A DNA stretch of 64,000 nucleotides, taken from the NCBI RefSeq assembly GCF_964204645.1, contig NC_134028.1, positions 6,634,001-6,698,000 of the forward strand, read 5' to 3'. The notes below the pieces were generated by a model. That model was not told where the DNA came from, made no database searches, and saw only the letters and a program-made list of their open reading frames with translations. Below, piece by piece: positions 3,470 to 39,352 of the stretch. Each line of letters opens with the position of its first letter. The first letter of the stretch is position 1. The position numbers and the translations under genes are program-made. This DNA is from Tubulanus polymorphus (lineage: Eukaryota > Animalia > Nemertea).

Positions 3470-3476
3470 ACGTTGC
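3470..3476. repeat. left target-site duplication ACGTTGC of the KDZ element
   Basis: Identical 7-mer at 28871-28877 immediately outside the right TIR; can also be read as 8 bp ACGTTGCC if the left end is shifted by 1 nt. Confidence 0.85.
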
Positions 3477-3615
3477 CACCCGATACACATCCCCTTCGTC
3501 GATACTTTATCAAAGAAGGGTAAACCTTCATTTGATAGTCTATCGCCTCGTGTTATAGTATACTATATTATGGTAACCCTTCTTAGATACTCATTGCCAG
3601 AAGGGCGCGCGCGTT
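3477..3615 (+). repeat. left terminal inverted repeat (139 bp)
   Basis: CACCCGATACACATCCCCTTC...GAAGGGCGCGCGCGTT is the reverse complement of 28732-28870. Confidence 0.95.
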
Positions 3616-3825: not shown

Positions 3826-4775
3826 ATGTCTATTTCATTTTCAATTTCAACCTGACTTGTGACATTTCGTGAGAAGCATACCGGGTGGCCTACTCAGTCA
3901 GTTATGGTGGTACACGTATACCTGTCCTGATAAAAGTCTCACTACGACCGGAAAGCAATGGCAGCTGACCTAAAACATCGTGTTTTAATCAATTTTAAAC
4001 TGCTTTAAAGGACATCCAAAAAGTCTGCATTGAAAGAGGTTCATGAGAGAAAAGAGACTCCATGATTATGATTTAAATATTTATCAATATCTGAATATGT
4101 TTCCATGCCTACCAACTCAACTGAAGTTTGGTGTGTAGGCATGGAAACCTATTGTTAAACTTTCAAATTATGGAGTCAAATTTCTTTATTTAAGCCCGGC
4201 ACACACCTTTGCGATTGATCGTATGATCGCTTCATCGCATGGTTTTATCGCATCATTGTAAAGGTATGCGGTGGCATCCGGAGCCGATTACATCGCAACA
4301 AATCAAACATGTTTCTTATTTTCGTATGCGATTTTTCCGTGAGATAAGAAAGGTCTGCGGGCTACGCTGCCGATGTTCCGGATAAAAATTTTTAGTAACC
4401 AATCAGAATTAAGGATAAAGCAGTCATATGATGTTCAAAATCAGCGGCTCAGTCACGTGATTGAATCCAACTCGAGGCCCTCTTAAAAATAGCAAAGGTA
4501 TGCGGCGATGATACGATTTTCATCGTGTCATCGCTACATCGCATGCGATGATACGATGTCGCGATGATCGCAAAGGTGTGCACCCGGCTTTAGGCGGCCT
4601 AATCCCCTTTCAATGCAGACGTTTTGGATATCTTTTAATACAGTTTCAAATGGATTAAAAAATGATGTTTTAGATCCACTGCCAGTGCTTTCTGGTCTAA
4701 TAAGACCAGGTATGTACTACCAAAAATGAGCGAGCTAGGCCACCTGATGTGCTCTCAAGTCAAGTTGAAATAGAC
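3826..4775. mobile_element. degenerate fold-back (long inverted-arm) non-autonomous element
   Basis: Arms pair, e.g. AAAGGACATCCAAAAAGTCTGCATTGAAAG (~4007) with CTTTCAATGCAGACGTTTTGGATATCTTT (~4607), and GGTGGCCT with AGGCCACC; ends approximate. Confidence 0.6.
4193..4589. mobile_element. PIF/Harbinger-like MITE nested in the fold-back element
   Basis: TIR AGCCCGGCACACACCTTTGCGAT / ATCGCAAAGGTGTGCACCCGGCT, TTA on both sides. Confidence 0.75.
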
Positions 4776-5442: not shown

Positions 5443-6717
5443 TTTTTTAGCCCACTTGGGACTTTAGTCCCAGCGGGCTATTGCGTTCACTTTTCGTCCG
5501 TCCATCTGTTCGTCTGTCCGTAGACGGAATCCAGTTATTTTGGGAAGTTTTGAAGACGCTTCAAGGTAATGGCTTGATATTTGGTTTATACATGCATCTA
5601 CCCTAGACACATCTTCAGCCCAAAAACTGGCCCTATCAGAATCAACATGGCCGACTGGCAGCCATTGTTGTTTGCCAAAATCAGCACTTTTTACACATTT
5701 TCGAAGTTTACGAGGGAAATTTTGAAGACGATATGATCAATTACCTTGATCTTTCGAATATATTTGAATCTACCAAGGGCCCATCAGCATAAGAAAAATT
5801 GGGTCCATCTGACTCAAGATGGCCGTCCTATGACCTTTTTAGTGCCCAAAAATGTCAATTTTGGCCAGAATTCTAGGTCCTGTAGCTTCCTACTGGTTTG
5901 CCATTTCTCATTGCAATTTGTGATGGGTATTCTTTGTAAAGGGATGTTTTATACCCGAGATAGGTATTTTTGATCCGCCAATTATGACGCAATTGGCAGC
6001 CATCTTGGTGTCATTAGTACTCATTCGTAGGTGGGAAAAAGTTTTGTTCGACATTATATTGGTACCTAAGCATATTTTGTTACAACAATGAATTAGAAAG
6101 TTTTAGAGTATAATGTGTTCTATGATTGGGGTGAGTTTCAAGTTCATTGTTTTTTGTATATGGCCACCAGGGGGCGTTGAATAATACAATATCTTAGTAT
6201 TTCTATATTATATTTGTACCAATACATATTTTGTTACCGCAATCAATTGCAAAGTTGTAGCTCATGACATCATCTATGATTGTGGTGAGTTTTAAGGAAA
6301 TTAGTAATTCTACATAGTCACCAGGGGGCGTTGAATAGTAGAATAACCTGGTATTTCCTTATTATATTGGTACCTAGGCATATTTTGTTACCATGATCAA
6401 TTGCGAAGTTGTAGTTCATGACATGTTCTATGAATATGGTGAGTTACAAGGTTATTGGGTTTTGAATATGGTCACCAGGGGGCGTTGAATAGTAGATTAA
6501 CTTAGTATTTCCATATTAAATTAGTAACGTGGCATTTTTTGTTATCACAATCAATTACAAAATCGTAGCTGCTGACATGTTTTATGATTGTATTGGGTTT
6601 CAAGGTCATTGGTTTTTGTATATGGTCACCAGAGGGCGTTGAATATTGAAATTGTTAGATTGTTGAGCATTTGAAACCACTTCCCAAGTGGGCATGGTGT
6701 CCCTGGACCCCTAGTTT
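5443..6717 (+). mobile_element. Helentron-associated non-autonomous element (HINE/DINE-1-like) with 154-bp internal tandem repeats
   Basis: T-run + subterminal IR GCCCACTTGGG with nearby hairpin, CCGT/CTGT microsatellite, four 154-bp units (CACCAGGGGGCGTTGAATA at 6165, 6319, 6473, 6627), 3' CCCAAGTGGGC + hairpin + CTAGTTT. Confidence 0.75.
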
Positions 6718-7326: not shown

Positions 7327-10300
7327 TTATTCTTTCAATTCAATTGGTTGATGTTTTTCTACAATACTTTGTATCTTTTTATCATACGAGATCACCATAT
7401 CCATAACGGATGTCAGGTTTTCAATCGGCTCCCATGTGTTGTGTTTTGAAGAGAAGTCCAACCACTTAATTTTGTAATATTGTTGACCTCCTTTCGATTG
7501 ATGACCAACAATTTTTTCCACCAAGAATATGTCTGGAATTAAAGATTGATATCAAATATACTACCACAGGCTACATATTACAATTGAAATTTTGCGCTTT
7601 AAGATGCTGTTTCTGCATAAATACATACCATCATTTGGTTTCTTTCTGGATTTATTTGCTAAAATGAAAAAAAACTCAATCATTTTTTTTTTAAACGAAA
7701 CTACAGTGAACACCTCCCTTAGTGAACTCCTCTATTTAGTGAACGCCTCCCTTAGAGAACACTTTTACCCGGGAACCAAATTTTCCCTACTCATTTTCAA
7801 TTAAACAGAACCACCATTTAGTGAACTTTACCAAATGAGTATTTATAGTGAACAGTGGTCCCATCCCAAAATAACCTTGTCCTCACTAGCGTGTTGTACC
7901 CAGGTTTCAACGTACCTGGGTTCAATGAAAACCCGCGTTCACGGTGAGTAGCGTCTACACTTAACACAATTTCGGTAGTAAGAAACAACATCTTTAGTGC
8001 AAGTTCAAGGTCAATTGTGGCGCCTGAACTCTGCATTGAACGCGGGTTCACTGTCTAGACTAGCAAAAAATGCAGAGTTTTACGTGACAGGGGGTTTCAA
8101 TGTGGAGTGTTCTTCTTCAAGAAGGGTTTCTAAAACCTGGGTTTTGCGGAAAAATATGTGCTACCTCCAATTAGTGAACACCTCTCTATAGTGAACAATT
8201 TCTTAGGAAGCGAAGTGTTCACTAGAGAGGTTATGCTGTATTCGATTGGTATTAACTGAATTGAAGGCTGCATACCTGATTTCTCCTTTTTCTTTGTGAC
8301 AACTTCGGTTTTTCTTTTTGTCATAGGTTCTGTTGAAAAAAAGAAAGGATAATTCAGCCTAGCTATTCAATAATATCTCATTTTATTTATTTTCTAAATA
8401 TAAAGAACAATACGTACCTCTGATGATCTCTGCACTATCTGAATCTACAATGAGAAACAAGATAATTTACCCCAATATTACCATAGCTTGTAAGTTTATA
8501 AGACAAAAAGACTTAGTTGTACCTTCAGTGGCTTCTGGAAACAGAAGTTCTTCAGTTGGTGACGCTGCTTCTCCGTGGCTCATAGTATCAACTAATAAGA
8601 AATAATTCTAATATTATCCATCAGTTTCATTTCCATTTCATTTCCATTAAAACATATCAATTGATTTTGAAATAACAGACCAATGCATTACTTGGAAAAA
8701 AGCATATTGTATTTGTGATATAAGGAAAAAAGAATTGATACCATGTTTCTTATTTCTGAGCTTAAAAATTGACGCAGGTGGCCATGTATCTACTCTGTAT
8801 ATTTACTTTTTTTGAAACCATTAACAAGCTAACAATAACAGACCTGGCAGTTACAGAAATAAACTGATTAGAAAATTTATTGCCGAGGACAAACAAGGTA
8901 TCAATTTTTTACCTTATAAAACACAATAATGCTGATCTGGCTGCTTTGAAATATTTCTTTAAACGTGCATACCCTACCATTATTTATTTTCCTTTTCTTG
9001 ATGCCAGTTTTGATTACTGAAAGAGAACAATTTTTTAATTGATTTTGTGCAATTATACTTCATCAAAGACTGCATAGCTTAGTGTTAAAAACGTACCTGA
9101 TTTCCCTGTTTTCTTTGTGAGGACTTCGGCTTTTCTTTTTGCCATATTAGGTTCTGTTGAAAAAAAGAAAGAATAATTCAGCCTAGCGATACAACAATAT
9201 CTTTTTTGCTTAAACGTAAGAAAAACATAAGAATACGTACCTCTGATGATCTCTGTAGCATCTGAATCTACAATGAGAAACAAGATAATTTACCCCAATA
9301 TTACCATAGCTTGTAAGTTTATAAGACAAAAAGACTTAGTTGTACCTTCAGTGGCTTCTGGAAACTGAAGTTCTTCAGTTGGTGACGCTGCTTCTTCGTG
9401 GCTCATAGTATCAACTAATAAGAAATAATTCTAATGTTATCCTTCCATATTCCATTAAGACATATACCAGTACCAGTACATTGTATTTCAATACATTAAG
9501 CCCACACAAAGAAATACCCTAGTTCTTCAAGGTCAAATGCCACCCGCATCATAAAAAAAGTAAAAATCGAAATTAATTAAATTAAAATCGAAAATTCAAA
9601 TGCGCTAACCCGCATTGGCAAACCATCAATCTGAATCGTCTTTTTTTATTATAAAAATTAAATCCTGCTCGCCCGCACCGCTGTATTTGTTATTTACTTA
9701 CTTCCCGCATCTCTTATATAAGTCTCTGGTTTCGAGCTTTTTATTTCAACTCTTTTTCAAAGGAGCTATGAAAATATAATTTGCTCACCAGCGTCACTTT
9801 CCAGAAAAAACCTGAGAAACTACGGTATTTCTTTGTGTGGCCTAATAATGACATTCAATATATCAACATCAAGATAAATGTTGATATATTATGTAATAGT
9901 GTGTCTAACTTAGTGTGTTAAATATCTATTACCGGTAAGTTGAAACAGTGTACCTTCGAAGTATATTTTATCTTCCTTTTTCAAAAGTGCTTTCAGCGAG
10001 TTTTTTGCATAAGATGATGGTCTTTTCAAAATTATTCCAGTTGGCAAATTAAATGCCCTGACTTGACCAGCATCAACCGCTTTGTAGCTGCATCTCGTCC
10101 CGGAGATACCCTTTATTGCTGAAGCTATATAATGGCGCATATGAAATGATTACGATTGTCAAATGCTGAATTTTTCGACTATTTGAATGTATAATCAAAT
10201 CAAGTAGCTAAAATATATGCTTACTGTATTTACGATTGAACATATCTGTGACTTTCGATCGCAGTACGTTGACATCTTCTAATTGATTGTCATCATCTGA

Positions 10301-11516
10301 ATGTAGCAACAAACGTATAGAAACTGAGACTGCCTGAATTATCTTAGTTAATGATAGTGAAAGTGTGTATGTTTGAATTATCTTTACCTGGCTGATAAAG
10401 TGACTTCAGACTTTGCTGAACCTCTCTCTGTTTTTCAAACCACTTTGTTGGAATTGGTGATCCACATATAAACATTCTATTCCCATCCTTAGTAATAGCA
10501 ATAGCCACAACATCCAACTTTTCTGTTGTCGAAGTAAATTTATTTACCTGAAGTATAATTATGTTATTTAGATGACTGCAAATAACATAAACGTTAATGG
10601 TTAAATGAAACGGCCTACCTTTTTTTCTAGTTCATGCACCAGAAATTCAATGTTATTTTCTTTATTTTCTGGGCCGATAGGCTGGCTGTGGCTTGCAGCC
10701 CTCTGTGCGTATGAAGCCATTGCTTCCTCTGTTTGGTCATTCCAATTTCCCTGGCCTAAAATGATATACAAATTACACACACCTCACTTTAAACAGGCTC
10801 AGCAACTACATAGAGGTTGACTAAAATCAACATGTATCTAGCTTACATTTTCCTTTTTTTTTATCAGAGAGATAAACATCGTACGGTCTGCATGATCGAA
10901 TGCGCTGCTTCTTACTCAGATTTTCATAGTTGTAAATCCCAGCTTTCTTTCGACATTGTACCTTGTGGTTCTCTATCCATTTCTTAAACAGAATAAACTA
11001 AAACTTTTAAAATACAGTTTATCAATTTATTATTTTAGTAAAAGTGCTTCATCACAAAGTCTGGAGAAAACACCGTAGGCCCTAGATCATAAGAAAAAGT
11101 TATATAGGCCTACCTTAACTGATTTCTCTGGCATGCCTGTAGCAACACTGGCTTCTCGAACCATTCCTTTGGTAAATTCATTTCCACAATGAGTCATCCC
11201 TTTCTCATAATAGGACACCAAAGTAGACTGTCTGAATTCAAATTGAAACTAAAGCAGTTAACGACTGTTAAATGTAAGTAGCTTAAAAGATCTTTCATAG
11301 TCAAACTCGCCAAAGTTCATCAGAGAGGTTGTCATAAGTTATCTCTGATCTTGGAACGACATTAGGCTAAGTCAACAACGTAATGATAGTGCATGTATCA
11401 GTTAATTATAAGAACTAGGTCTGAATGGTTTGATAGTAGAGACCTGCCCAAGTGCATGCTTACCTTTCCTTGGTGTTTAATAATGGCCCATGGGTATTTT
11501 CAAATTCTTTGTCCAT
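7327..11516 (-). CDS. transposon cargo protein: HDX-like homeodomain + degenerate HMG box + GTF2I-like repeat + acidic/basic linker + C-terminal chromodomain (~461 aa, ~15 exons)
   Basis: In-phase GT-AG exons 11516-11464, 11231-11114, 10982-10847, 10755-10619, 10547-10388, 10296-10225, 10124-9954, 9414-9346, 9267-9241, 9153-9097, 8591-8523, 8444-8418, 8329-8276, 7658-7629, 7532-7327. Motifs: RQSTLVSYYEKGMTHCG...ATGMPEKSVKKWIENHK; RPYDVYLSD...WNDQTEEAMASYAQRA; LRSKVTDMFNRKY...NLPTGIILKRPSSYAKNSLKALLKKEDKIYF; FLVEKIVGH...YKIKWLDFSSKHNTWEPIENL. Linker exon set is least certain. Confidence 0.8.
7704..8238. mobile_element. Tc1/mariner-pogo-like MITE in an intron of the cargo gene
   Basis: TA|CAGTGAACACCTC...TAGTGAAC and GTTCACTAGAGAGGTTATGCTG|TA; repeated TTAGTGAAC subterminal motifs. 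Confidence 0.7.
8276..9445. repeat. tandem duplication of a ~340-bp three-exon block (8276-8620 and 9097-9445)
   Basis: Near-identical exons and introns (DTMSHxEAASPTEELxFPEATE / DSDxxEIIR / EPxxxKRKxEV). Confidence 0.9.
9500..9842. mobile_element. PIF/Harbinger-like MITE
   Basis: TAA|GCCCACACAAAGAAATACC ... GGTATTTCTTTGTGTGGCC|TAA. Confidence 0.7.
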
Positions 11517-13057: not shown

Positions 13058-14751
13058 TCAAAACAAATGAGAAGAATAGCGACAAGTACGTGTCCAAATA
13101 TGTGCTTTCTTCTCCTCGTGGAATATGCGAGTAAATTTCATAGGACACTCACATAGATAACAATTATGATTGCTGCCAACCCAACGGTATATCCAGATAT
13201 CATGGTTCGGACAATGGCAATTTGTGGTGGTACTCGAACTACCTAATTTTTTGTCAATACTTTTTTTAACCGCTTCGTTATAGGCACATATCGTATCTAG
13301 TTTATGCATTTGTCGAGCATGCTGAAGGAGATCTTTAAATTTTTCACCATACTTTTTGCAGTAAGGCAAAATACATCGATCAGCAATAACAACTTTTTCA
13401 GAAGTGTGACGCTTTTTATGGTCAGTCAGGTTGCCTCTAGACATAAATCTTAATCCACAAATATTGCAAGCATATTGTCCTTTTGGCACATGTCTTTTAA
13501 CATGAACGTTCAAATTGCTCTTATCGGTAAAGCTTTTACCGCATATCTCGCATGAAAATTTCAGTTCTTTGCAATGTATTCTTGAATGACGATTAAAATT
13601 TGATTTATTGCCAAAAATTCTGCCGCACACCGAACATTCATATCCACTGTCTACTTTTTTACATAATACTGTAGCTGTATCGGGCGCAATAACTGATGAC
13701 GAGTCCTGGTTCTTTTCGCTAACGTCACTTTTTAGAACGGAAACAACACGACGTCTATTACTTTTACGCCTGGACAAAGTTGTCGTAACATCAACACGTT
13801 TTACAGATACATTTTCTTCGATGTCCTGTTGCTGCTTGAGCTTTTTTAATTGGTCGACATGAATATTCCACTGTTCTTCGAAACTAATCGAATCATACTT
13901 CCATGCGAGGAAATGAAGTCCAATATTTAGGGAGGGCTTAAGTCCAATTGCTTTTTTTTCCATAAACAATGGTATAATCGATTTTGCATGTTCTTTAACT
14001 TCCTCCATTGGCCATGGCCCAATTGGCAATGCTCCACCATACTTTAACCGCAGAGCTTCCACGCGTCTAATCGTATCAATTTCGCCAATAATTGGGCAGG
14101 AGGGAAGAAATTCTTGAAATTCATGAGTATAAAAGCTGAAAAGAAAGATATTCAATTAGAAGATAGTTTAGTACAGGTAAGATAAGAATTTTGGTTGATA
14201 AGAGGATTTATTGTCCATACTTACAAATAACCATAGCCATTTCCGTGTATTTCAACGACCAGGTCCCCACTTCCATAGGGGCATGTTGGTGGAATATCAT
14301 GTAGTCCACAGATCTGTTTTTGGGCCTGTGTATTTTCCGCTACATTTATCACACCCATACATCTGGGAGGAAACTTACGAACATACGCAAATCCCACTCG
14401 TATTCTCTCTGACTCTGTGCGAAGTAAATAAAGAGGTTTCTTACTTATCATTGACATCAGATCAGCTAATACCAAGTCCTACAGCTATGCCTTGACAGTA
14501 TATAAATTTAATCAATTACGGTATGTACCTTTTACAGCAGCTCCAGTAAGCTTGTTGGCCGGGTACTGGTTGTTGAGTCGGAGCCCATCTGTTTCAACGG
14601 GCGTACCGAGGATCGGGGTTTCACTGCCGACTTTCTTCTGCCGGCCTTGTTCTTTGTCACTATCGTCTTCGACTTCATCACTTACATCGAATGGTTCTAT
14701 TCCACTAATATCGCTACTTGCATCCAGATCCACGCCTAGACATTCAGCCAT
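13058..14751 (-). CDS. transposon cargo C2H2 zinc-finger protein (~515 aa, 3 exons)
   Basis: Exons ~14751-14536 (donor uncertain), 14478-14225, 14135-13058; the exon 2/3 junction is in phase (GY-F-FYTHE). Three tandem C2H2 fingers (YECSVCGR...HSRIH; FSCEICGK...HVKRH; YACNICGL...HKKRH), an atypical fourth finger and a Cys/His-rich tail; AATAAA on the minus strand near 12620. Confidence 0.8.
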
Positions 14752-14897: not shown

Positions 14898-15032
14898 TTG
14901 CCTGGACCGTACGATTTTAGATTATAATCAAAATCATTGTATTTCACAAACGTCATCGCTTCAAACACTCGATGAAGTTTAAAACAAAATACGAAGCAAG
15001 TACGTCACCACGATTATTATAGTAATTATAGT

Positions 15033-17850
15033 GGTCGTTCTTATTTGAACGACGATATCAGAAACGCGCAACTGCTAATATATAACCATATTCGCAATTC
15101 ACCAGAAACATACTGAGACAAGAACGACCAAGCAGGCAGAAAACATTAAACAATCATCAATATCCACATTTTTCGACTATATTTAGCGTGAAATAGAAGT
15201 TTCGATCAATTTCTCATTGTTGGTCGTTCTTGTTTGAACGACGATATCAGAAACGCGCAACTGCTAATATATAACCATATTCGCAATTCACCAGAAACAT
15301 ACTGAGACAAGAACGACCAAGCAGGCAGAAAACATTAAACAATCATCAATATCCACATTTTTCGACTATATTTAGCGTGAAATAGAAGTTTCGATCAATT
15401 TCTCATTGTTGGTCGTTCTTGTTTGAACGACGATATCAGAAACGCGCAACTGCTAATATATAACCACATTCGCAATTCACCAGAAACATACTGAGACAAG
15501 AACGACCAAGCAGGCAGAAAACATTAAACAATCATCAATATCCACATTTTTCGACTATATTTAGCGTGAAATAGAAGTTTCGATCAATTTCTCATTGTTG
15601 GTCGTTCTTGTTTGAACGACGATATCAGAAACGCGCAACTGCTAATATATAACCACATTCGCAATTCACCAGAAACATACTGAGACAAGAACGACCAAGC
15701 AGGCAGAAAACATTAAACAATCATCAATATCCACATTTTTCGACTATATTTAGCGTGAAATAGAAGTTTCGATCAATTACTCATTGTTGGTCGTTCTTGT
15801 TTGAACGACGATATCAGAAACGCGCAACTGCTAATATATAACCATATTCGCAATTCACCAGAAACATACTGAGACAAGAACGACCAAGCAGGCAGAAAAC
15901 ATTAAACAATCATCAATATCCACATTTTTCGACTATATTTAGCGTGAAATAGAAGTTTCGATCAATTTCTCATTGTTGGTCGTTCTTGTTTGAACGACGA
16001 TATCAGAAACGCGCAACTGCTAATATATAACCACATTCGCAATTCACCAGAAACATACTGAGACAAGAACGACCAAGCAGGCAGAAAACATTAAACAATC
16101 ATCAATATCCACATTTTTCGACTATATTTAGCGTGAAATAGAAGTTTCGATCAATTTCTCATTGTTGGTCGTTCTTGTTTGAACGACGATATCAGAAACG
16201 CGCAACTGCTAATATATAACCACATTCGCAATTCACCAGAAACATACTGAGACAAGAACGACCAAGCAGGCAGAAAACATTAAACAATCATCAATATCCA
16301 CATTTTTCGACTATATTTAGCGTGAAATAGAAGTTTCGATCAATTACTCATTGTTGGTCGTTCTTGTTTGAACGACGATATCAGAAACGCGCAACTGCTA
16401 ATATATAACCATATTCGCAATTCACCAGAAACATACTGAGACAAGAACGACCAAGCAGGCAGAAAACATTAAACAATCATCAATATCCACATTTTTCGAC
16501 TATATTTAGCGTGAAATAGAAGTTTCGATCAATTTCTCATTGTTGGTCGTTCTTGTTTGAACGACGATATCAGAAACGCGCAACTGCTAATATATAACCA
16601 CATTCGCAATTCACCAGAAACATACTGAGACAAGAACGACCAAGCAGGCAGAAAACATTAAACAATCATCAATATCCACATTTTTCGACTATATTTAGCG
16701 TGAAATAGAAGTTTCGATCAATTTCTCATTGTTGGTCGTTCTTGTTTGAACGACGATATCAGAAACGCGCAACTGCTAATATATAACCATATTCGCAATT
16801 CACCAGAAACATACTGAGACAAGAACGACCAAGCAGGCAGAAAACATTAAACAATCATCAATATCCACATTTTTCGACTATATTTAGCGTGAAATAGAAG
16901 TTTCGATCAATTTCTCATTGTTGGTCGTTCTTGTTTGAACGACGATATCAGAAACGCGCAACTGCTAATATATAACCATATTCGCAATTCACCAGAAACA
17001 TACTGAGACAAGAACGACCAAGCAGGCAGAAAACATTAAACAATCATCAATATCCACATTTTTCGACTATATTTAGCGTGAAATAGAAGTTTCGATCAAT
17101 TTCTCATTGTTGGTCGTTCTTGTTTGAACGACGATATCAGAAACGCGCAACTGCTAATATATAACCATATTCGCAATTCACCAGAAACATACTGAGACAA
17201 GAACGACCAAGCAGGCAGAAAACATTAAACAATCATCAATATCCACATTTTTCGACTATATTTAGCGTGAAATAGAAGTTTCGATCAATTTCTCATTGTT
17301 GGTCGTTCTTGTTTGAACGACGATATCAGAAACGCGCAACTGCTAATATATAACCATATTCGCAATTCACCAGAAACATACTGAGACAAGAACGACCAAG
17401 CAGGCAGAAAACATTAAACAATCATCAATATCCACATTTTTCGACTATATTTAGCGTGAAATAGAAGTTTCGATCAATTTCTCATTGTTGGTCGTTCTTG
17501 TTTGAACGACGATATCAGAAACGCGCAACTGCTAATATATAACCATATTCGCAATTCACCAGAAACATACTGAGACAAGAACGACCAAGCAGGCAGAAAA
17601 CATTAAACAATCATCAATATCCACATTTTTCGACTATATTTAGCGTGAAATAGAAGTTTCGATCAATTTCTCATTGCTGGTCGTTCTTGTTTGAACGACG
17701 ATATCAGAAACGCGCAACTGCTAATATATAACCATATTCGCAATTCACCAGAAACATACTGAGACAAGAACGACCAAGCAGGCAGAAAACATTAAACAAT
17801 CATCAATATCCACATTTTTCGACTATTTTAAGCGTGAAATAGAAGTTTCG
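15033..17850. repeat. satellite array, 189-bp unit x ~14.9 copies, nearly homogeneous
   Basis: Unit starts GGTCGTTCTT at 15033, 15222, 15411 ... 17679; only a few variant sites. Confidence 0.98.
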
Positions 17851-18393
17851 TTGTTGCTGTTGTTGTTGTTCTTCGACTCTACGGGCCTCCTGGTTTTTGA
17901 AGATCATTTTCAATCCAAAATACCACAAAATAGATCTAGCCGGCTCATTCACGTATTATATTCAAAGAAATAACGAACAACGAAATCATCTTCAATGTAT
18001 TGTGAATGACAAATGAACGTTTAGCGTCACATATCTATTTATTCATGAACACGATAATTACACACATACACATATTATATAAATATTCATATATCATTAC
18101 ACTAGCATACCACGCATACAGGCATTGACTAATAAAAACAAACATCGCATTTCTAGCCAAAATATATCACAATATAAATTATTATAAATTGTACTCTATG
18201 TTAATAAAATCTGATGTACACGAGTTTTTTATTCAATAATTTGATGCAAAAATTCAGAAAAATACTTAAAAACACATTTGATATAATTTATAATTTCCAT
18301 TGAAAAGAAATCAATACTGAAGCTGGCCAGGACATATTTGCAAAAATATTGTTCCAAATTCACAGGGGAACAGTAGTGGATGAACAGAGATTG

Positions 18394-19562
18394 AAAACTA
18401 GGGGTCCAGGGACACCATGCCCACTTGGGAAGTGGTTCCAAATGCTCAACAATCTAACAATTTCAATATTCAACGCCCCCTGGTGACCATATACAAAAAC
18501 CAATGACCTTGAAACTCATCACAATCATAGAACATGTCAGCAGCTACAATTTTGTAATTGATTGTGATAACTAAATATGCCTTGTTACCAATCTAATATG
18601 GAAATACTAAGTTATTCTACTATTCAACGCCCCCTGGTGACCATATACAAAAACCAATGACCTTGAAACTCATCACAATCATAGAACATGTCAGCAGCTA
18701 CAATTTTGTAATTGATTGTGATAACTAAATATGCCTTGTTACCAATCTAATATGGAAATACTAAGTTATTCTACTATTCAACGCCCCCTGGTGACTATAT
18801 TCAAAACCCAATGACCTCGAAACTCACCACAATCATAGAACATGTCATGAACTACAACTTTGCAAGTGATCATGATAACAAAATACGCCTAAGTACCAAT
18901 ATAATAAGGAAATACTAAGTTATTCTACTATTCAACGCCCCCTGGTGACCATATAGAATAACTAATGTCCTTAAAACTCTCAACAATAATAGATGATGTC
19001 ATGAGCTATAACTTTCCAATTGATTGTGGTTACAAAATATGCATAGGTACGAATATAATAAAGAAATGCTAAGATATTGTATTATTCAACGCCCCCTGGT
19101 GGTCATTGACAAAATCCAATGACCTTGAAACTCACCACAATCATAGAACACGTTATGAGCCACAACTTTCTAATTGATTGTGGTATCAAAATACGCTTAG
19201 GTATCAATATAATGTGGAAAAACTTTTTCCCACTTACAAATGAGTACTGGCGACACCAAGATGGCTGCCAATTGCGTCATAATTGGCTGATGAAAAATAA
19301 CTGTCTCAGGTTTTAAAACATCCCTTTCCAAAGAATACCCATCACAAATTGCAAATTGAGAAATGGCAAACCAGTAGGAAGCTACAGGGCTCAGAATTTG
19401 GGCCAAAATTTACATTTTTGGGCACTAAAAAGGTCATAGGACGGCCATCTTGAGTCCGATCGACCCAATTTTTGTTATGCTGATGGGCCCTGGGAAGATA
19501 CACATACATCCGAAAGATCAAGGTAATTGATCAAAGCGTCTCAAAAATTTCCCTCAAAAAGT
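18394..19562 (-). mobile_element. second, inverted, 5'-truncated copy of the HINE-like element (five 154-bp units)
   Basis: Reverse complement of ~5700-6717 (AAACTAGGGGTCCAGGGACACCATGCCCACTTGGGAAGTGG...). Confidence 0.8.
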
Positions 19563-20042
19563 TCAAATTTTTAGTCAGGAAATATGATCAACAGCTAGTA
19601 GACCACAATAATAAAAGGAAATTGAGGTGTTTGTACAATTACCTATAAAAAATTATATTTTGAACATATTTCACGGAATTCCGGGAATTTTAATTTTACA
19701 ATCCAAGGTCGCCATCAATGTCCGATTAGCAAAGTTGTCTGAGCATGGCTGCACCATTTCCATGGCTGCACCATTTCCAATCAAATTTGTAACATCCGAT
19801 GTAATAAAATATTTTTTGATAATGATCTGTGCCGATATAATGATTTGATTTAAAAAAAAAAAAAATTACGAGAAAGGAGTTTGGTAGTCGGTCGGCCATA
19901 TATATTTTTGAAAAAAGTTATTTCACCCAAAATTTTGAAAAAGGGTCGATAGGCAATTATATCTTATTCTGAAAATGATTATTTTTACAGAGTTTTCTTT
20001 TCTGTGGCCTAAATTCCAAATTTGTGTGGCCTAAATTCAAAA

Positions 20043-23000
20043 TTAAACAACTACTTCTGTGTCAGACTCTTGATCATCAGAATCAAAAGTATACAGTGCG
20101 GAATTGGAATCTTCTGGTTCAGCAGTTTGTTTTTCCACTAAATTTGAGTATATTTCTTGACACGAGGAAATGCGTTTATGAAGGAACTTCAGTTTTTCAT
20201 ATATCAAACTCTTAAGTCCCTGATCTACATCGTCATCTTCCCTGGCAGCAAGAAGATCAGCTCGTTGAATCTCTAAATTCTGTATCACATGAGAAAGTTC
20301 AACCTGAACCATTTGCTTTTCTTCTATCGACCTTTTCAGAGTAAACCAACTGCCTAAGGCTTTACGTTGCATTGTAGTTAAAGCTGACATCTAAAGGAAG
20401 AACAAGACAGGAAATCAAATACGAGAAAAATTTTGTAGCAAGCTCCACCGAGAAGAATAAAGACCAACCTCGTTAGACAATGGCTGGTAAATTGTGCTTT
20501 CGAGATTCAGAGCATCTTTAGAACTAATTCTGTTGATATCCGCAGTCAGACAATTGTACAAGTTAATGGCCTTTTTTATACTTTTCACAACCCGCTTCCG
20601 CTGCTTGATCAGACGACTTGCAATTTTCTGGCCACCTAAAATTTAGTGGGGTATATACATGAGTTATGTCTGTTCTGAAGGGATTTACAAGGGAGGAATG
20701 ACAATGTAGCAATTATGTCACATGGGATGGCAGTTTCACCTGCATGTTTTTTTGAAGCTTTATCAAGAACCTTCATCTCACATGCTAAGGTTCGCATTTG
20801 TCGAAGATATGCACAACGTTTCCTGTCATTCATTGCTTCCATTAGATTGATGTATTCGTATTGAGAACTGGACCATCGAGTGAGATTCCGAATATTTTCA
20901 ATTGATTGAAGTCTTGCATCCAGTCTAAACGAGACAACAGTATCAGTATCATCACAATGCCACCATAATGAAAACTGACAGAAAACAAGCTGAAAACTAA
21001 TACCAATGTACGTAGTTACTCCAACTTACTCATCTCTCTCTTTAACAAGGGTCATACATGTGGTACCATCATTAGAGCTCTTTATCATTGTACTGAGAAA
21101 AAAAAATATATATTTACATTCATATTTCATTTAAGTACTTAATAAGTGCACCTCTGATGATTTATCTCATAATTACTATAACTTACCAGACAGTGTAGTA
21201 TGTAGACAAGAGCTTGACGTATTTTTCTTGCCATGAGGATGGGTTTCCTTAATATTGAAAAAGAAAAATAATCAATACAACAGGCCTTAAAACTCTTTCC
21301 ACACCGTGGGTTAAATATTTCGCCTCATGAGATGACTATAGCTGATGTCGAGGGCAAACTCATTTGCCAGGGATATATCTAAAATAATTTCATTGAAAAA
21401 AAGTTTATAGGGCAATTTTTATTGGTTTGTCAAGTGGATGAGATCTCAGTCATGTATCTGGTATACTATAGTATAGAACTATTAGATGGCGAAGCTGTGC
21501 CCACAGTAACTTATGGCAGGTGACCTCCATTTTTTCCCAGATTTCTAATTCAAAGGTCAATAAGTCAGCGTGACCCTCAATGGACCCAAACCCTAGAGTG
21601 TATCATATAACCATTCATGAGCTTTCAGAAAATTATTGGTTTTGGGGTGTTGACTTAGTTCAATGCCACGTGTTCACAACCCCGAAAAGGTCCAGCACAG
21701 CTGAGTGGAATTTCATTAATGATGATCAACATGGAAAGAGTTAAACTTGTTAACACCATGCCATAACTTTTACCTTTATCTCTTTTATGAGTCACTGATA
21801 CCTTTTCCTGGAAATTCCACTGTTCAAAGATATCATCTCTCCCAGTAGCTATTTCTAAAAATAATGAAAAGATACATGTAAATTCAGCTTTATTCCTCTA
21901 GCAAATAAGATACATGGTGACAAATCGAGACCTGGAATTATCAATGATATATCGGCAAGTTCCTTTTCTGCTTGTTCTATAGCTACATCTGCTCTCTTAA
22001 ACCGCTCAAACAATGCGAATTCTAAAACCACAAACAAAAATGATGTCAAAATTATCAATATGTGATAACCATACCATCCTGGATTTACTTACCAATTTTA
22101 TTCATTTTCTTCCATGTATAATGCTGGGCTGCTAATGTAAGTAACTCTAACCTACGATTTGGAGTCTGTTCCTTTGTAATTTGAGCAAATCGTCGGATAT
22201 AAGACCAAAATCGTTCCATAGTTTCTCCATCCGTCAAACCAAAATTTTCCAAGCGACGTGGACTTAAGTTTGTCTGAGCGATAATAAAAGATAAAAAAAC
22301 ATTTTTTTTTTCAAATAAATATAATGATCCAGTCAGAAGAAAACTTAAACCTAGGTTAGATCCATACTTGACAATTGGCTTGATGACCATAGCAGTGAAA
22401 TAATGGAATGGCAAATTGGAGATTACCCGGCAACATTCTTGAAATATCTGGTTTCTGAAAAAATATCAAATGCACGTGGTAGTTAGAATGGGTTCAGGGA
22501 AACCATTCTCATTTGGGAACTAGGGATATTGTTTCAATAACATGGTCTATGGGCAATAACTAAGAAATGGCATCTACCTTTAGATATTTTTGCAATACAC
22601 AAGCTATGTCATACATAACTACCAATTCTAATTGATTATGCTCAACTTGCAGCTCTGCAACCATATGATTCAACAGCGAAACAACGTAACTGAGCCTGGA
22701 ATATGAATCAAACACATTCTCACACATCAAAACTAGGGATCCAAGGACTCCATGAAATCATTGACTATTTCAATATTCAATGGCCTCTAATGAACATACA
22801 CAGAAACCAATGATCTTGGCACTCATCAGAGAAGATTTCATGAGCTACATATTTGCAATTGATTGTGGTTCCAAAATATGCACATGTAAGATACAGAACT
22901 AGATTACCTTTCACCGTGCCTTAGATTTAGCATCGCTAGTGGAATCTCATGTCGTGAACATGCCAAACCCATCACACCAGTATAATCCAAATTGACAGCT

Positions 23001-26000
23001 TTGTTTTTGGCACGGATGTCTGTTCCTGCCTGGAAATTATTACATTCCTGGAAAAATTAATCAAATGGCAATTTCAATTAAATATATTAATATATATTGT
23101 ATACAATCAAAACCATTTTTTTCAAAACCAAAATATTTACACCATCATCAAGTTTGGATGTATCACAACATCTCAAAACATACGAATCTACATTGCCTTG
23201 GTCTAAAAATATTGGTCTTAAGATTTGTGGGGTAGAGTAACTCCTTCCTGCATTCTTTTTCCGAACCAATCCAAAATTAGCATCAGCTGACACAAAAAGT
23301 TTACCATTATCCTAGGAAGATGAAAATTGATTTTCAAAAAATATTTCAGAATACAGAAGACTCTGCCTGTCCGGTAATCCATTCAATCTAAATGAAGGTC
23401 CAAATGGTACCGGTTAAGGCGGGGTCTATTTTATATGGCAAACCAGTGTCAGAAATGCAGCCAGAAGCCATACCTCAGGACAAGCCAAGCACCGCTTATA
23501 AGTGTAAGATTTCGACAACAGATATTCCTCACAAGTTATCAATCTAAATCTACTCAGACTCTCACTTGTCAGCAGTCTATACAACTGTGAGACCTACGTA
23601 ACATCAAAGCACATCAAATTTTAGTTAACAATGAAATATAGACAGGAGATGTGCACTTGGGGTGTATTACTTTACCTGGTCAAGCGAATAAGCGTTCATC
23701 ACAGCATACGTGTCTGCAAATGCTCTTGCTGACAGCTGACCTTCTATTTGGAGAGTCGTAAAAAGTTTGAGAAAATCAAATGATGCAGCGTATGTTGGCT
23801 GGGAAGGAGATGCAGGCCACAAACGATGATTGGTTAAAGCAATAGGTAGACTTTGACATTCGCAGTGCTGAACTTTTTTCGCATCACATCGACCTATTAA
23901 TCAATATCAAACATAGCAGTGAATAAATCTGAAGTAAATTATGGTTGATTTTGATTTTAACCGTCCTGGTGAATTCTTGCTGTTTGGTTAAAGAAATTTA
24001 CTTTTTTGGATCTAAATCCAGATACTGGCATGCATTTTAACCTACTGACAGATAATGTCATTTATAAAACAAGAGTTAAATCTTGAGCAAATTATACATA
24101 CCATAAGAATCGAAGACTGTAATAATTTTTTCTTCAATCAAGGTACAATTGCATGGTAATCTGCTGAGGAGGGGTGGCTCCCTAGGACACACATGGTTAA
24201 AAAAACCATCCATCTGTGCAAAATAAAAACATCATAAAATACAATGTACGTAGAGTTTTTACCATTCATTCACGTTTCCACTGGTAAGGCCAGGACAAAA
24301 AGAAGTACTAAGGACTTTTTCAGCAATTTTAGACCCAAATGGAAGGACTTCTTGACTGAAAAAGAATACTTTCCAGCAAAATTAGGACCCAAGCAGGGCC
24401 CACAATAGGCGATTTTTATCACTGAATCCAGGCATCCTCACTTGCCAGGGCTTGATTACCGCCCGCTAAAGCTCCCGTCAACACAAACCCTGGCCGTATA
24501 CCCTTCATTGGTCTATTACATCGCCCAAAATTTCGTGGGCCGAGAGGTTAACACTGAATGCCCACCAGTCTATATATCTAGCCAAAGAGATGCATGATTT
24601 GTCCTACAGCATTACCACGCATATGATTGACTGGAGTGAAATATAGACTGGCGGACACTGTCTGGCCAAGAAATGGACAATGTAATAGACCATATGAAGG
24701 GTTTGTGGCCAGGGTTTGTATTGGCGTGAGCTTATTATTCAAAAACATTTGCAATGTGTACCAATGTCAAATTTTGTGCAATATTTCCAAGCAAAGAAGC
24801 GATAGAGACATGAGATTTCAAATAAAAAACAACCTTTTTAGACGCAAAAAAAGACCTTGAGTGAACAAATTTTGACCAAATATACCAATTGACCATGAAG
24901 TGTATTAGAAATTTCCCTTGAAAACTTCAAAAGAGCTGATTTTAGCAAGCCAAATATATGGACAGACAATTGAATTAAGTGTCTTCAAAAGTTCGCCTTG
25001 ACAGAATAATGGACATATGACAGTTGAATAGTGAAAGCTAGGCCCCTGGGACTTGAGTCCCACATGGGCTATAAATACTTACAGCTTGCCACTGCTTCAA
25101 TCGATGGAAAGGCAAATATGTATGTAAGTTTATGCTGCATTCCAAACAGTATGTAGCAAATGGATGACAATCATCACATCGAAAAGGCTCTTGTTCGATT
25201 TTTTCGCAGATAAAACATTCAAACGACATCGGTTTGTACTGCTTCAGAGCAGATTCAGTGAGCTTGTCCGATAACTCATCCCACGCATGGACTTCAGACA
25301 CTCGTCTCTTTCCATAATCACCATAACTGCCTTTCGTTGCACTTTCAGAATGACCTTTTGAGTTAAAAGAATATTCATTTGGATCAATCATTTTAAAACA
25401 AGATGTAGTTATAGTAGTACAATGCCATCACCAATGCCTAATGGGACATCCGGCAAATTAACTAGGGGGCACCATGCCTACTGGCTGGTTGAAAGGCTCC
25501 ACAATCTGGCGATCTATAAAATACAGATATCAATGACCTTTTGCAACTACAATTTTGCTTTTGATCGTGGTAACAAAACATGCAATATGGAAATATCATA
25601 CGTTATTCCACTATTCAATGCCCCCTGGTGAACATTACAAAACAGAGAGTCATGACCTTGAAACTGACCACAATCATGGAACATCTCATGAGCTACAGCT
25701 ACGCAAAAAAATTGCTGCTACAAAATGTCCCCCCCCCCCTGTTTTATGATGAGATTTTACAAGGACCACCTTCACAGCACTCAAGAGTTCAAAGAGATCG
25801 GCTCTATAACGGAAAACGGCTCTATAACTTTTTAGTGCTTGGCCCGTAGTATCTACATTCCCAGTTTCGTCAAGATGAGATTATAATTGTTGGACAAGAA
25901 GCGATTTAAAGATTTTACAAGCGCCACCCATACAGCGCCCTCTAGAGATCAAATTCGGAAAAACGGCTCCATAACTTTTTAGCCCTTGGCCCATTTTCAC

Positions 26001-26476
26001 TTCATACCAAGTTTGGTCAAGATTAAAAAAGAACTGTAGCACTAGTAGCAAATTGAAGCAAAAGCTGATGGAGGAATGGACGGACGACGACAGATAATCA
26101 CTCTAACCCATCAGCTCCTCTGACCTTCGGTCACAGCCGAGCTAAAAATTACATGTACCATACAAATGGATTTCTCTCAACGAATTCATTTGATTGAATA
26201 AGAGTGTATTAGTATTGACTTACTATCAGTTGGATCAAGTGATTCATAGTCCGAAGATTCAGGCTCAGTTAAATTAGATGAGCCAGAATCAGGAACATTT
26301 CCTTTTATTTCCGACTGCCCACTGACGCTATGAAAAACACCATCTTTGACCAGGTATAACATCGGTTCTTTTTGTTTCTCTCTTACAACTTTAATAGGCT
26401 TCATTTTTCCAGATTTTACGATGGTTACCTCAGGATAATCTGTATGCAATTCTTTAATAGTTCTTTTGCGAGGCAT
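20043..26476 (-). CDS. KDZ (Kyakuja-Dileera-Zisupton) DDE transposase with N-terminal CxC (CxC2-like) cysteine domain, ~888 aa, 17 coding exons
   Basis: In-phase GT-AG exons 26476-26224, 25354-25083, 24213-24102, 23893-23676, 23593-23474, 23311-23141, 23047-22908, 22695-22578, 22454-22368, 22273-22093, 22021-21932, 21854-21774, 21247-21187, 21092-21030, 20924-20740, 20635-20469, 20390-20043 (2667 nt, no internal stop found). Motifs FRCDDC...CLEC...LPFHRLKQW; HCEC...LWPASP; CLACP; SADANFGL; TGVMGLACSRHE...HGER; MYDIAC; IPLFHCYGHQANCQ; GLTDGETMERFWS; GQKIASRL. Confidence 0.93.
25420..26148 (-). mobile_element. HINE-like element in intron 1 of the transposase
   Basis: Minus-strand 5' end TTTTAGCTCGGCTGTGACCGAAGGTCAGAGGAGCT + CGTCCGTCC microsatellite; internal similarity to the 154-bp unit family. 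Confidence 0.55.
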
Positions 26477-27323
26477 AATGGATAGACTGAAAAATAAGTG
26501 CTGGTAAAGGTTAGAAGTAATCAGATTGCATGTAGCCTTTCTGGTCTTTCGTTATATTAGTACACTAATAGGAAAGCACCAGTTCAAGAACTCAACGGGG
26601 GCCAGGATTAGTGCCTATTTTCCTCCCCTATTATAAGATGCGGTCCACCAGCTGAACCAGAGGCTCAGGAAACATGACCACTTGTCACAAAATTCAATGC
26701 CCCCTGTTGACCATATATAGAAACAAATGAGCTTGAAACTCACCACAGATAACTGGATTCCAGTGGTGCCCGAGGTGGAATGGTGTATTACATTGACTAG
26801 GCACCTGGTTTAGTGTGGCAGGGGTGCGCGCTGTGGCTGTGTAGCAATGCCAAAAGGTTTAACTCCCTGCCGAGGGAGGATGATTTTTATTTACGATTTG
26901 ATAGAACTGATTTAAGTGTAGGGTGCAGGGGCGGATCTAGGGGGGTCAATAGGGTGGCTAGGCACCCCCTCAAACGCCTTCAAAAAATTTTTTCGTGTAA
27001 ATAGCCTATCTCTAAGAAAATAAGAATGTTAGCTGCCTCAGAATCAGAACTAACAGTAGCGTTGCGACATTATTGGATGTCACCGTATGCTACGAGCATT
27101 CATCGAGATGATCGCTCGTAGATACAAGTAATGACTGACAAAGGTGGCTATTTGAGGATATTCAAGCGGGAAGTGATCAAATCGAAGTGCTGACAGTGTA
27201 CCCTGCTTAGCAGGAGAGAATTAACAAATCTCATTATATAAAAAATGCATCATAGGCCCATGGCTATTTGGTTGATAAACGTCAATCACCGGCTCAATAC
27301 GTCCAGTGCGGGTGTAAAAATAA

Positions 27324-27748: not shown

Positions 27749-28046
27749 TAAAAATAATCGGCCGAAAATTTTAAGTTTGATTCAGGTGATTCACTAGGCG
27801 TTTGTCGTCACCGACTGAATATTTCGGGCGATTAATGCAGTAGCCATTTTCGTACTAGGCCTAAAGCGGTGATTCACTGGCAGCACTTTGAGTATACGGC
27901 CATGGTGGCGCACTGCCTATTTGATTTAATAAAATAATGAAAAGGTCGGCAAAATACTGAATAGGCCGAGGCTAAGTTGGAATTTATACTAGGCCCGGAA
28001 ATCTAAGGCATTATGCATTACCCATTTTCGATTTCCATTATAAAAG

Positions 28047-28481
28047 GGTCCTCCTTATTACCGAGATGACGTAATTTACCGAGATGACAATGACGTGAAA
28101 TATAGTATATTTAACTATTCCTTATCAATTTTAACACTTGAAATAATGTTGCATCAGTAATAAATACCTTCTAGAGTCATATTTTACATATTTTTCCGGA
28201 TATTTTGTAAAAAAAATTTGACTTAATCGTAATCTTGGTTAGCAATAAAATTTCATTAGATTTGATTGATCGACGATCTCATCTCAGTAAAGATATTTTT
28301 CTACAAAAATATCCGATAAAATATGTAAAATATGACTCCAGCAGGCATTTATTACTGATATAATATGATTTCAAGTGTTAAAATCGATAGGGAATAAATA
28401 AATATGTTATATTTCTTTATGTCATCTCGGTAAATACGTCATCTGATCTCGCCCTCTCAGTCTCGGGTAATAAGGAGGACC
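28047..28481. mobile_element. fold-back MITE
   Basis: GGTCCTCCTTATTACC...GGTAATAAGGAGGACC with ~160-bp pairing arms. Confidence 0.75.
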
Positions 28482-28731: not shown

Positions 28732-28870
28732 AACGCGCTCGCCCTTCTGGCGATGAGTATCTAAGAAGGGTTACCATAATATAGTATACTATAACACGGG
28801 GCGATAGACTATCGAATGAAGGTTTACCCTTCTTTAATAAAGTATCGGAGAAGAGGATGTGTATCGGGTG
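28732..28870 (-). repeat. right terminal inverted repeat (139 bp)
   Basis: Reverse complement of 3477-3615. Confidence 0.95.
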
Positions 28871-28877
28871 ACGTTGC
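28871..28877. repeat. right target-site duplication ACGTTGC
   Basis: Matches 3470-3476. Confidence 0.85.
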
Positions 28878-38989: not shown

Positions 38990-39091
38990 TCTCCCCTCCC
39001 CCCTTTCTCTCTCTCCCTCCCTCCATCCCTCTCTCTCTCTCTCTCCCTCTCTCCCTCTCTCTCCCTCTCTCTCTCTCCCTCTCTCTCTCTC

Positions 39092-39184
<93 letters not shown>

Positions 39185-39352
39185 CTCGCTCTCGCTCTCT
39201 CGCTCTCGCTCTCGCTCTCGCTCTCGCTCTCCTCTCCCTCCCTCCTCTCTCTCCCTCTCTCTCCCTCTCTCTCTCCCTCTCTCTCCCTCTCTCTCTCCCT
39301 CTCCCTCTCCCCCCTCTCTTTTTTTTTTCTCTCTCTCCCTCGCTCTCTCTCT
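38990..39352. repeat. (CT)n / polypyrimidine microsatellite with (CTCGCT)n segment
   Basis: Directly visible. Confidence 0.97.

What the first reader, a model, noticed from the sequence alone, without database searches (positions are those of the whole stretch)
9954..10296. GTF2I (TFII-I)-like repeat encoded inside an invertebrate transposon
Spliced exons give LRSKVTDMFNRKYTSAIKGISGTRCSYKAVDAGQVRAFNLPTGIILKRPSSYAKNSLKALLKKEDKIYFE. This follows the I-repeat pattern LRxxVxxLFNxKY...PY...V.GLPEG+.F++PSxY....LxxIL....I.F of vertebrate GTF2I/GTF2IRD1. That family is best known from vertebrates, so a transposon-borne copy suggests a mobile-element reservoir or origin for the I-repeat (inference).
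Basis: partly seen in the sequence, partly recalled or inferred. Interest (0 to 1): 0.85.

Follow-up and report, generated by a model that had tools for sequence, protein, structure and literature searches.

The report
TFII-I-like gene riding a worm transposon
A 25-kb jumping gene in a ribbon worm carries, beside an intact transposase gene, a spliced second gene holding the repeat known from the vertebrate Williams-syndrome transcription factors (TFII-I family) and likely their dimerisation domain too, so those vertebrate factors may descend from a transposon helper gene.

Summary
Confirmed and extended. Exons 10296-10225 and 10124-9954 (minus strand) encode a full-length GTF2I repeat: PF02946 39.7 bits against a cut-off of 27, with matches to solved I-repeats. 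They belong to a 16-exon, 474-aa gene: homeodomain, weak HMG-like part, an alpha-beta-beta-alpha domain, one I-repeat, chromodomain. The gene lies in a 25,394-bp element (3477-28870) with 139-bp inverted ends and an exact 7-bp target duplication, together with an intact 888-aa CxC2-KDZ transposase and a zinc-finger gene. RefSeq Tubulanus polymorphus holds five near-identical loci of each gene; four share contigs, the fifth pair has neighbouring ids. Related proteins occur in an annelid (one model fuses KDZ CxC exons to them), a soft coral and a crinoid. The domain before the repeat aligns with the vertebrate TFII-I N-terminal dimerisation region by profile (84%; 0 of 300 shuffles), not by single sequence. 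Vertebrate repeats form one side of the tree (99/96), so this is no capture from vertebrates. Transposon reservoir: shown here. Transposon origin of TFII-I: plausible, direction unproven. Not found in ten literature searches.

The parts
3470..3476 (+). Left target-site duplication, 7 bp (ACGTTGC)
   Evidence: Same 7-mer in direct orientation at 28871-28877, flush with both inverted ends; not a palindrome and the inverted match stops there
3477..3615 (+). Left terminal inverted repeat, 139 bp, begins 5'-CA
   Evidence: 131 of 139 bases match the right end
5444..6717 (.). Nested very-high-copy dispersed repeat with 154-bp tandem units; not an end of the element
   Evidence: Many contigs run on into unrelated flanks at 5443/5444 and 6716/6717; summed depth far above the element interior
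7327..11516 (-). Accessory gene A: 16 coding exons, 474 aa, no internal stop; homeodomain - HMG-like - N-domain - I-repeat - low-complexity basic linker - chromodomain
   Evidence: All introns GT-AG; 473 of 474 identical to RefSeq P0003; spliced contigs in run X4
10847..11516 (-). Exons 1-3: homeodomain (about aa 8-72) and start of HMG-like part
   Evidence: Model region pLDDT 63-82; VIA Z 8.9, rmsd 2.2, 59 aligned to the CRX homeodomain; Foldseek rows mostly homeodomains but E 0.3 or worse. HMG-like: only the soft-coral relative P0068 hits HMG_box_2, E 0.0044, below cut-off
10388..10755 (-). Exons 4-5: end of HMG-like part and the alpha-beta-beta-alpha N-domain (aa about 131-202), likely homologous to the TFII-I N-terminal 'leucine zipper' region
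   Evidence: hhalign 84.4%, score 31.7, 61 columns; 0 of 300 column shuffles reach it; same order of secondary structure in two low-confidence models; single-sequence HMM test not significant
10225..10296 (-). Exon 6: first helix of the I-repeat
   Evidence: Vertebrate-repeat HMM positions 2-15, 10.7 bits alone
9954..10124 (-). Exon 7: remainder of the I-repeat
   Evidence: PF02946 positions 34-71, E 8e-6 alone; in X4 contig 19
7327..7532 (-). Exon 16: chromodomain (aa 410-458), with F409, W430, F433 at the positions recalled as the methyl-lysine cage
   Evidence: PF00385 52-56 bits; best solved relatives HP1alpha/CBX5, MPP8, Rhino; joints 7532/7629 and 7658/8276 in X4
13058..14751 (-). Accessory gene B: 3 coding exons, 496 aa, C2H2 zinc fingers in the C-terminal half, N-terminal part without a Pfam hit
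   Evidence: Exons from spliced X4 contig 21, open frame, zf-C2H2 61.8 bits
15032..17977 (.). Tandem array of about 15 x 189-bp units, 99-100% identical
18395..19567 (.). Second nested copy of the 154-bp-unit repeat, opposite orientation
   Evidence: 86-89% match to 5700-6717; far end not fixed
20043..26476 (-). KDZ transposase gene: 17 coding exons, 888 aa, intact, CxC2/CxC1 + KDZ
   Evidence: All GT-AG, one terminal stop, 5-6 differences from RefSeq P0048/P0045; PF18758 144 bits, PF18803 36 bits
28545..28687 (-). Untranslated first exon of the transposase transcript, just inside the right inverted end
   Evidence: X4 contig 26 joins 28545 to 26486; GT and AG at those places
28732..28870 (+). 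Right terminal inverted repeat, ends TG-3'
   Evidence: X1 depth about 120-220 on long contigs inside, 26-29.5 outside; one X1 contig begins on the window exactly at 28871
28871..28877 (+). Right target-site duplication, 7 bp

Best explanation
The two exons encode a true GTF2I repeat within a 474-aa accessory gene of a 25.4-kb, multi-copy KDZ cut-and-paste transposon whose transposase gene is intact, and the protein likely serves the element as a dimeric DNA- and chromatin-binding partner. Shown: the repeat, the gene, the element's ends and duplication, the transposase, near-identical copies, spliced contigs. Inferred: the transposase cuts at the inverted ends and leaves the 7-bp duplication (known KDZ behaviour); the accessory protein dimerises through the N-domain (by likeness to the GTF2IRD1 zipper region), binds DNA through homeodomain, HMG-like part and I-repeat, and reads H3K9-methylated chromatin through its chromodomain, so as to steer insertion or keep the element expressed in silenced chromatin. 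The N-domain + I-repeat module is an old animal module that vertebrate TFII-I and GTF2IRD1 share at their N-terminus; they multiplied the repeat and lack the flanking domains.
For: Repeat: PF02946 1-73/75, 39.7 bits; phmmer to 2dzr E 2e-5, 2dn4 3.6e-5; all 10 solved sequences hit by the non-vertebrate profile are I-repeats. Element: 139-bp ends, 7-bp duplication; depth step and a contig breaking at 28871; transposase transcript starts inside the right end. Co-mobility: 5 RefSeq loci of gene A and 5 of the transposase; 4 of 5 contig lengths coincide, and LOC141909802 / LOC141909804 neighbour for the fifth; transposase copies differ at 0-7 aligned residues. Gene A is open over 16 exons and spliced. 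Conserved order homeodomain - HMG-like - N-domain - I-repeat in nemertean, annelid and soft coral. Capitella: 5 related models, P0064 matching P0062, P0063, P0065 at 59/59, 60/60, 56/58 residues, and P0062 joins a CxC1/CxC2 piece (27% to this transposase, E 5e-17) to the first exon and I-repeat of that gene on an 11-kb contig. Atlas clusters: homeodomain + GTF2I mostly Cnidaria (166 members, score 0.95) and chromo + GTF2I + homeodomain mostly Mollusca (58, score 0.83, a lead). Giant KDZ elements with extra transcribed genes and fixed nested insertions are known (PMC12477816, passages).
Against: No experiment on function; a passenger gene would look the same in one genome. Adjacency is shown for the window only; for three of the other pairs the LOC ids are 540-1388 apart and one pair 57 apart, so only the shared contig is known. 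The Capitella link rests on one automatic gene model. The crinoid protein P0007 (homeodomain-like start, 4 repeats, zinc fingers) is a single-member cluster on a 1.9-Mb scaffold and may be a host gene; the neighbourhoods of the soft-coral and unnamed hits could not be seen. The N-domain homology fails in a single-sequence HMM test (P0068 1.4 bits, P0003 below 0; best shuffles 3.9-8.1) and P0003 alone scores 10.4 in hhalign, no better than reversed. The model of the I-repeat is poor (pLDDT 40-46) and no fold match to an I-repeat was listed. All runs that hold the stretch come from one study.
Confidence: 0.7

Rival explanations
1. An old animal host gene (homeodomain - HMG-like - N-domain - I-repeat) was captured by KDZ transposons once or a few times and rides as a passenger; vertebrate TFII-I descends from the host gene, not from a transposon.
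For: The architecture spans Cnidaria to Echinodermata. Gene capture by KDZ and other DNA transposons is documented for TET/JBP (PMC12730594, passages). P0007 looks like a host gene. The tree is unrooted.
Against: In both genomes with usable context (Tubulanus, Capitella) the gene is multi-copy and tied to KDZ sequence, and their repeats are only 23 of 68 identical, so the link would be old or repeated. C-terminal domains differ in every lineage, as is usual for transposon proteins. The N-domain's nearest Atlas clusters are unnamed, mostly basidiomycete proteins (0.83-0.84, leads only), the group rich in KDZ elements.
Confidence: 0.25
2. The element picked the repeat up from a vertebrate GTF2I gene by horizontal transfer, or the sequence is contamination.
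For: [quoted passage not shown]
Against: 22 vertebrate repeats stand on one side of a branch against 24 others, 99/96. The protein is on RefSeq chromosomes of the worm in five copies and has relatives in at least three other invertebrate phyla.
Confidence: 0.02
3. Only the I-repeat is shared with TFII-I; the domain before it is an unrelated helix-strand-strand-helix unit that aligns by amphipathic pattern.
For: Single-sequence tests are negative; alignments are shallow (4 and 10 rows); fold search of the vertebrate domain gives best Z 4.0.
Against: The profile match covers 61 of 72 columns in register, grows as phyla are added (14 to 31), is absent in 11 of 14 sliding windows and present only in those over the domain, and the domain sits directly before the first repeat in both groups.
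Confidence: 0.2

Closest known systems
Vertebrate TFII-I family: GTF2I, GTF2IRD1, GTF2IRD2 (I-repeat PF02946; PDB 2dzr, 2dn4, 1q60, 2eje, 2d99)
   Same: Full-length I-repeat; likely the N-terminal dimerisation region directly before it; an intron after the first helix at what appears the same place (inferred from where a bird ORF fragment P0044 and a fish model P0059 break; their DNA was not seen).
   Different: One repeat instead of 5-7; homeodomain and HMG-like part in front, chromodomain behind; multi-copy inside a transposon; outside the vertebrate clade of repeats. PMC3493543 (passages) calls the repeats unique to the three vertebrate proteins.
Kyakuja elements of Agaricomycetes (Kojima 2025, PMC12730594; passages read)
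   Same: KDZ transposase, 7-bp target duplication, 5'-CA..TG-3' termini, accessory genes.
   Different: Fungal Kyakuja are described without TIRs and with TET/JBP cargo; this animal element has 139-bp TIRs and homeodomain/I-repeat/chromo and zinc-finger cargo. Placement in the Kyakuja clade was not tested by tree.
Giant KDZ elements of Ectocarpus (PMC12477816) and Cryptococcus KDZ1-3 (PMC11343200); passages read
   Same: 10-30 kb, TIRs, extra transcribed genes, nested insertions; CxC + KDZ transposase.
   Different: Cryptococcus KDZ1 has an 8-bp duplication and is Dileera; no GTF2I-like cargo in the passages read.
GTF2IRD2 (I-repeats fused to a captured hAT/Charlie8 transposase; bioRxiv 10.1101/2020.05.07.082677 passage; PMC8700633 reference title only)
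   Same: I-repeat associated with DNA-transposon sequence.
   Different: There a host GTF2I gene captured a transposase in placental mammals; here the I-repeat gene is a separate gene carried by a different superfamily.

Membership tests
GTF2I-like repeat (PF02946) | Full-length profile match above the curated cut-off | tested here: met
   39.7 bits vs 27, positions 1-73 of 75
GTF2I-like repeat (PF02946) | Sequence match to solved I-repeat structures | tested here: met
   2dzr E 2e-5, 2dn4 3.6e-5, 2eje 0.0025, 2d99 0.021; profile A1 hits 10 sequences, all I-repeats
GTF2I-like repeat (PF02946) | Same three-dimensional fold | tested here: inconclusive
   Model pLDDT 40-46 over the repeat with a 5-row alignment; lists filled by homeodomains
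GTF2I-like repeat (PF02946) | DNA binding | not testable with these tools
   Needs a binding assay
Vertebrate TFII-I family | Several tandem I-repeats | tested here: not met
   One repeat here; 5 in shark, frog and bichir GTF2IRD1, 7 in the bird GTF2I record
Vertebrate TFII-I family | N-terminal dimerisation ('leucine zipper') region before repeat 1 | tested here: inconclusive
Vertebrate TFII-I family | Repeat within the vertebrate clade | tested here: not met
   Vertebrate rows one side of a 99/96 branch; this repeat outside
KDZ DNA transposons | KDZ transposase with a CxC domain | tested here: met
   PF18758 144 bits, PF18803 36.2, PF18802 29.5; intact in the window
KDZ DNA transposons | Defined termini with a target-site duplication | tested here: met
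   139-bp TIRs, 7-bp duplication
KDZ DNA transposons | Dispersed near-identical copies | tested here: met
   5 transposase loci on 5 contigs, 0-7 mismatches
Kyakuja subgroup | 7-bp duplication and CA..TG termini | tested here: met
   definition from PMC12730594
Kyakuja subgroup | No terminal inverted repeats (as described in fungi) | tested here: not met
   139-bp TIRs present
Kyakuja subgroup | Transposase groups with Kyakuja in a tree | not tested
   No reference KDZ sequences were in hand
Zisupton subgroup | 8-bp duplication; CxC4/SWIM or CxC7 domains | tested here: not met
   7-bp duplication; none of these domains listed at E up to 0.5; features from PMC12730594, PMC11343200, PMC12062965 passages

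The most novel reading that the evidence does not exclude
Vertebrate TFII-I and GTF2IRD1 are domesticated transposon helper genes: their N-terminal dimerisation domain and first I-repeat, with the intron inside the repeat, come as one module from a homeodomain-HMG-like-N-domain-I-repeat accessory gene that KDZ transposons have carried since before the cnidarian-bilaterian split (perhaps since a common ancestor with fungal elements), and this worm holds a living, intact example.
Probability: 0.45. Interest if true: 0.88.

Novelty: new variant of a known kind. Interest (0 to 1): 0.74.

Why it matters
The TFII-I family, central to Williams-Beuren syndrome, is described as arising in early vertebrates with repeats unique to it (PMC7298749, PMC3493543). 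An intact, recently mobile element that carries the repeat and likely the dimerisation domain makes the origin question testable: survey neighbourhoods, solve one invertebrate module, assay it. It would add TFII-I to the vertebrate regulators drawn from DNA transposons, and it gives a complete animal KDZ element with Kyakuja-type 7-bp duplication plus TIRs and a chromatin-reading partner protein whose role in targeting or anti-silencing can be assayed.

Tried and rejected
The 1-kb inverted arms at 5700-6717 / 18395-19567 looked like element ends; rejected, they are two copies of a separate very-high-copy repeat. A second TIR+duplication candidate (3565/28782, 8 bp) is a palindrome inside the TIR. 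No whole genome was held, so other copies could not be read as DNA. Locus searches found nothing: metagenome contigs with alignment A4 (141 pattern matches, 0 confirmed) and with P0022 (598, 0), viral contigs (53, 0). No RNA holder was listed; run X5 covered only the nested repeat. P0019, 1 of 20 hits, has no GTF2I domain and was left out as chance. Single-sequence tests of the N-domain were negative. A MADS-box-like fold for the N-domain was my idea from memory; the fold search is inconclusive (best Z 4.0; four MADS entries among 50 rows at Z 3.1-3.6) and no solved structure of the vertebrate region was found by sequence. No I-repeat fold match from the weak model. The first tree used mis-set repeat boundaries; it was redone with the same split. 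Apparent frameshifts in the transposase were my wrong exon boundaries; one search is the corrected model. Iyer et al. 2014 is not held; Boehne et al. 2012, Repbase and paper supplements were not seen and may already list such elements.

Full report
Observation. The flagged span is two minus-strand exons, 10296-10225 and 10124-9954, with canonical splice sites and a 100-nt phase-1 intron. The second exon alone matches Pfam PF02946 at E 8e-6, just under the cut-off. A search with it returned two RefSeq proteins of the ribbon worm Tubulanus polymorphus, 100% identical over the exon, among 46 candidates. These spliced records match my independent 16-exon model (P0001 exactly over 445 aa, P0003 at 473 of 474) and score 39.7-41.3 bits over positions 1-73 of 75, cut-off 27. 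A vertebrate-only HMM gives 41.4 bits against a best of 7.7 in 5000 shuffles; an earlier, shorter version of that HMM found only this exon at E below 0.4 among 1739 six-frame segments of the window. The junction is supported by a spliced contig in run X4 whose spacing equals the 72-nt exon; X4 is not on record as RNA and the joint table was cut before that row.

The protein. 474 aa: homeodomain at about 8-72 (VIA Z 8.9, rmsd 2.2, 59 aligned), an HMG-like stretch (weak; only the soft-coral relative hits HMG_box_2, E 0.0044), a helix-strand-strand-helix domain at 131-202 (low confidence), the I-repeat at 213-283, a basic and acidic linker built from small exons, three of them duplicated, and a chromodomain at 410-458 whose closest solved relatives are HP1alpha, MPP8 and Rhino. 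That these read H3K9 methylation, and the cage positions, are recalled.

The element. 3477-28870, 25,394 bp, with 139-bp inverted ends (131 of 139 match), CA..TG termini and the same 7-mer in direct orientation on both outer sides (a given 7-mer recurs by chance about once in 16,000, my arithmetic). It holds three genes on one strand: an 888-aa CxC2-KDZ transposase, 17 exons, no internal stop, whose transcript begins just inside the right end; a 496-aa zinc-finger gene; and gene A. In run X1 long contigs inside lie at depth about 120-220 and outside at 26-29.5, and one contig joins the window exactly at 28871 with 556 other letters before it, likely an empty site; contigs of X2 and X3 bridge end and flank. 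Depth is not a copy number and the runs are two samples of one study. RefSeq lists five loci for gene A and five for the transposase. Contig lengths coincide for four; the fifth pair has ids two apart. Physical adjacency is shown only in the window.

Relatives. Of 20 hits in the 1.84-billion library, 19 scanned (the other was P0002): 18 carry PF02946, one is chance. Named non-vertebrate relatives are Capitella (annelid; P0006, P0062-P0065), Dendronephthya (soft coral; P0068) and Anneissia (crinoid; P0007); fourteen further records are unnamed. P0064 and P0068 keep the order homeodomain - HMG-like - N-domain - I-repeat with different C-termini. P0062 joins a KDZ-type CxC piece to the first exon and repeat of the Capitella gene on an 11-kb contig, the same order as here; it is one automatic model. 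The Atlas adds clusters dominated by Cnidaria and Mollusca with the same domain sets and, as leads under 0.9, unnamed basidiomycete clusters.

Relation to TFII-I. In a 46-row, 77-column tree the 22 vertebrate repeats are one side of a branch, 99/96 (one GTF2I and three GTF2IRD1 proteins used, other vertebrate records and P0062, P0063, P0065 left out; unrooted). The domain before the repeat aligns with the vertebrate N-terminal region in a profile comparison of 4 against 10 rows: 84.4%, score 31.7; best of 300 column shuffles 21.3, reversed 10.4. Single sequences do not reach significance. PMC3493543 (passages) says this region mediates dimerisation of GTF2IRD1. Unnamed ORF fragments, a bird GTF2I fragment and a fish model all begin or break at about the residue where this gene has its intron, which suggests a shared intron; their DNA was not seen.

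Mechanism. Most likely a helper protein of the transposon that dimerises, binds DNA and reads methylated histone tails, guiding insertion or protecting expression; two-gene DNA transposons with a DNA-binding partner (Harbinger, CACTA) are the recalled analogy. The function is inferred only. Whether the module began in transposons or in an old host gene is open; I put the transposon origin of TFII-I at 0.45.

Literature. Ten searches listed no paper that links GTF2I repeats to KDZ elements or describes them in these invertebrates; the library lacks most subscription journals, Iyer 2014 and Repbase. I read passages only of PMC12730594, PMC12477816, PMC11343200, PMC9297572, PMC12062965, PMC3493543, PMC7298749, PMC12428995, PMC8700633 and bioRxiv 10.1101/2020.05.07.082677. 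The databases already tag these proteins with PF02946 automatically. Two earlier AI notes of this scan reach like readings in other genomes; they are not evidence.

Verdict. Real, intact and recently mobile; a new variant of the giant KDZ elements, with an evolutionary claim that is now directly testable. Interest 0.74.

Noticed in passing
window 5444-6717 and 18395-19567: Very-high-copy repeat with 154-bp tandem units, an 11-bp subterminal inverted pair and a short 3' hairpin, between T-runs; these are recalled hallmarks of Helentron-type non-autonomous elements. An X1 contig at element depth runs into its end, so the insertion may be shared by the copies. Fragments also lie in transposase introns (22764-22891, 25543-25726, 26688-26747).
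   Followed up: partly
window 15032-17977: About 15 copies of a 189-bp unit, 99-100% identical, inside the element upstream of the zinc-finger gene.
   Followed up: no
window 13058-14751 (-): Zinc-finger accessory gene; its N-terminal 290 aa and C-terminal Cys/His-rich tail have no Pfam family. The crinoid P0007 has I-repeats and C2H2 fingers in one protein.
   Followed up: partly
window 8273-8622 and 9094-9445: Internal duplication (89.5%) of three small linker exons of gene A; RefSeq P0002 lacks 66 residues there.
   Followed up: partly
window 28046-28444, 24469-24733, 3870-4757: Palindromic or inverted-arm small repeats nested in the element; the first has many loose ends at 28046/28047.
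   Followed up: no
P0064 C-terminus; P0066-P0068 C-terminus: Relatives end in other domains: a weakly Tudor-like one in the Capitella gene (PF18336 E 0.11 on P0062) and an unassigned 190-aa domain in the soft-coral type.
   Followed up: no
window 38926-39400 and 45902-46144: Simple-sequence arrays outside the element.
   Followed up: no
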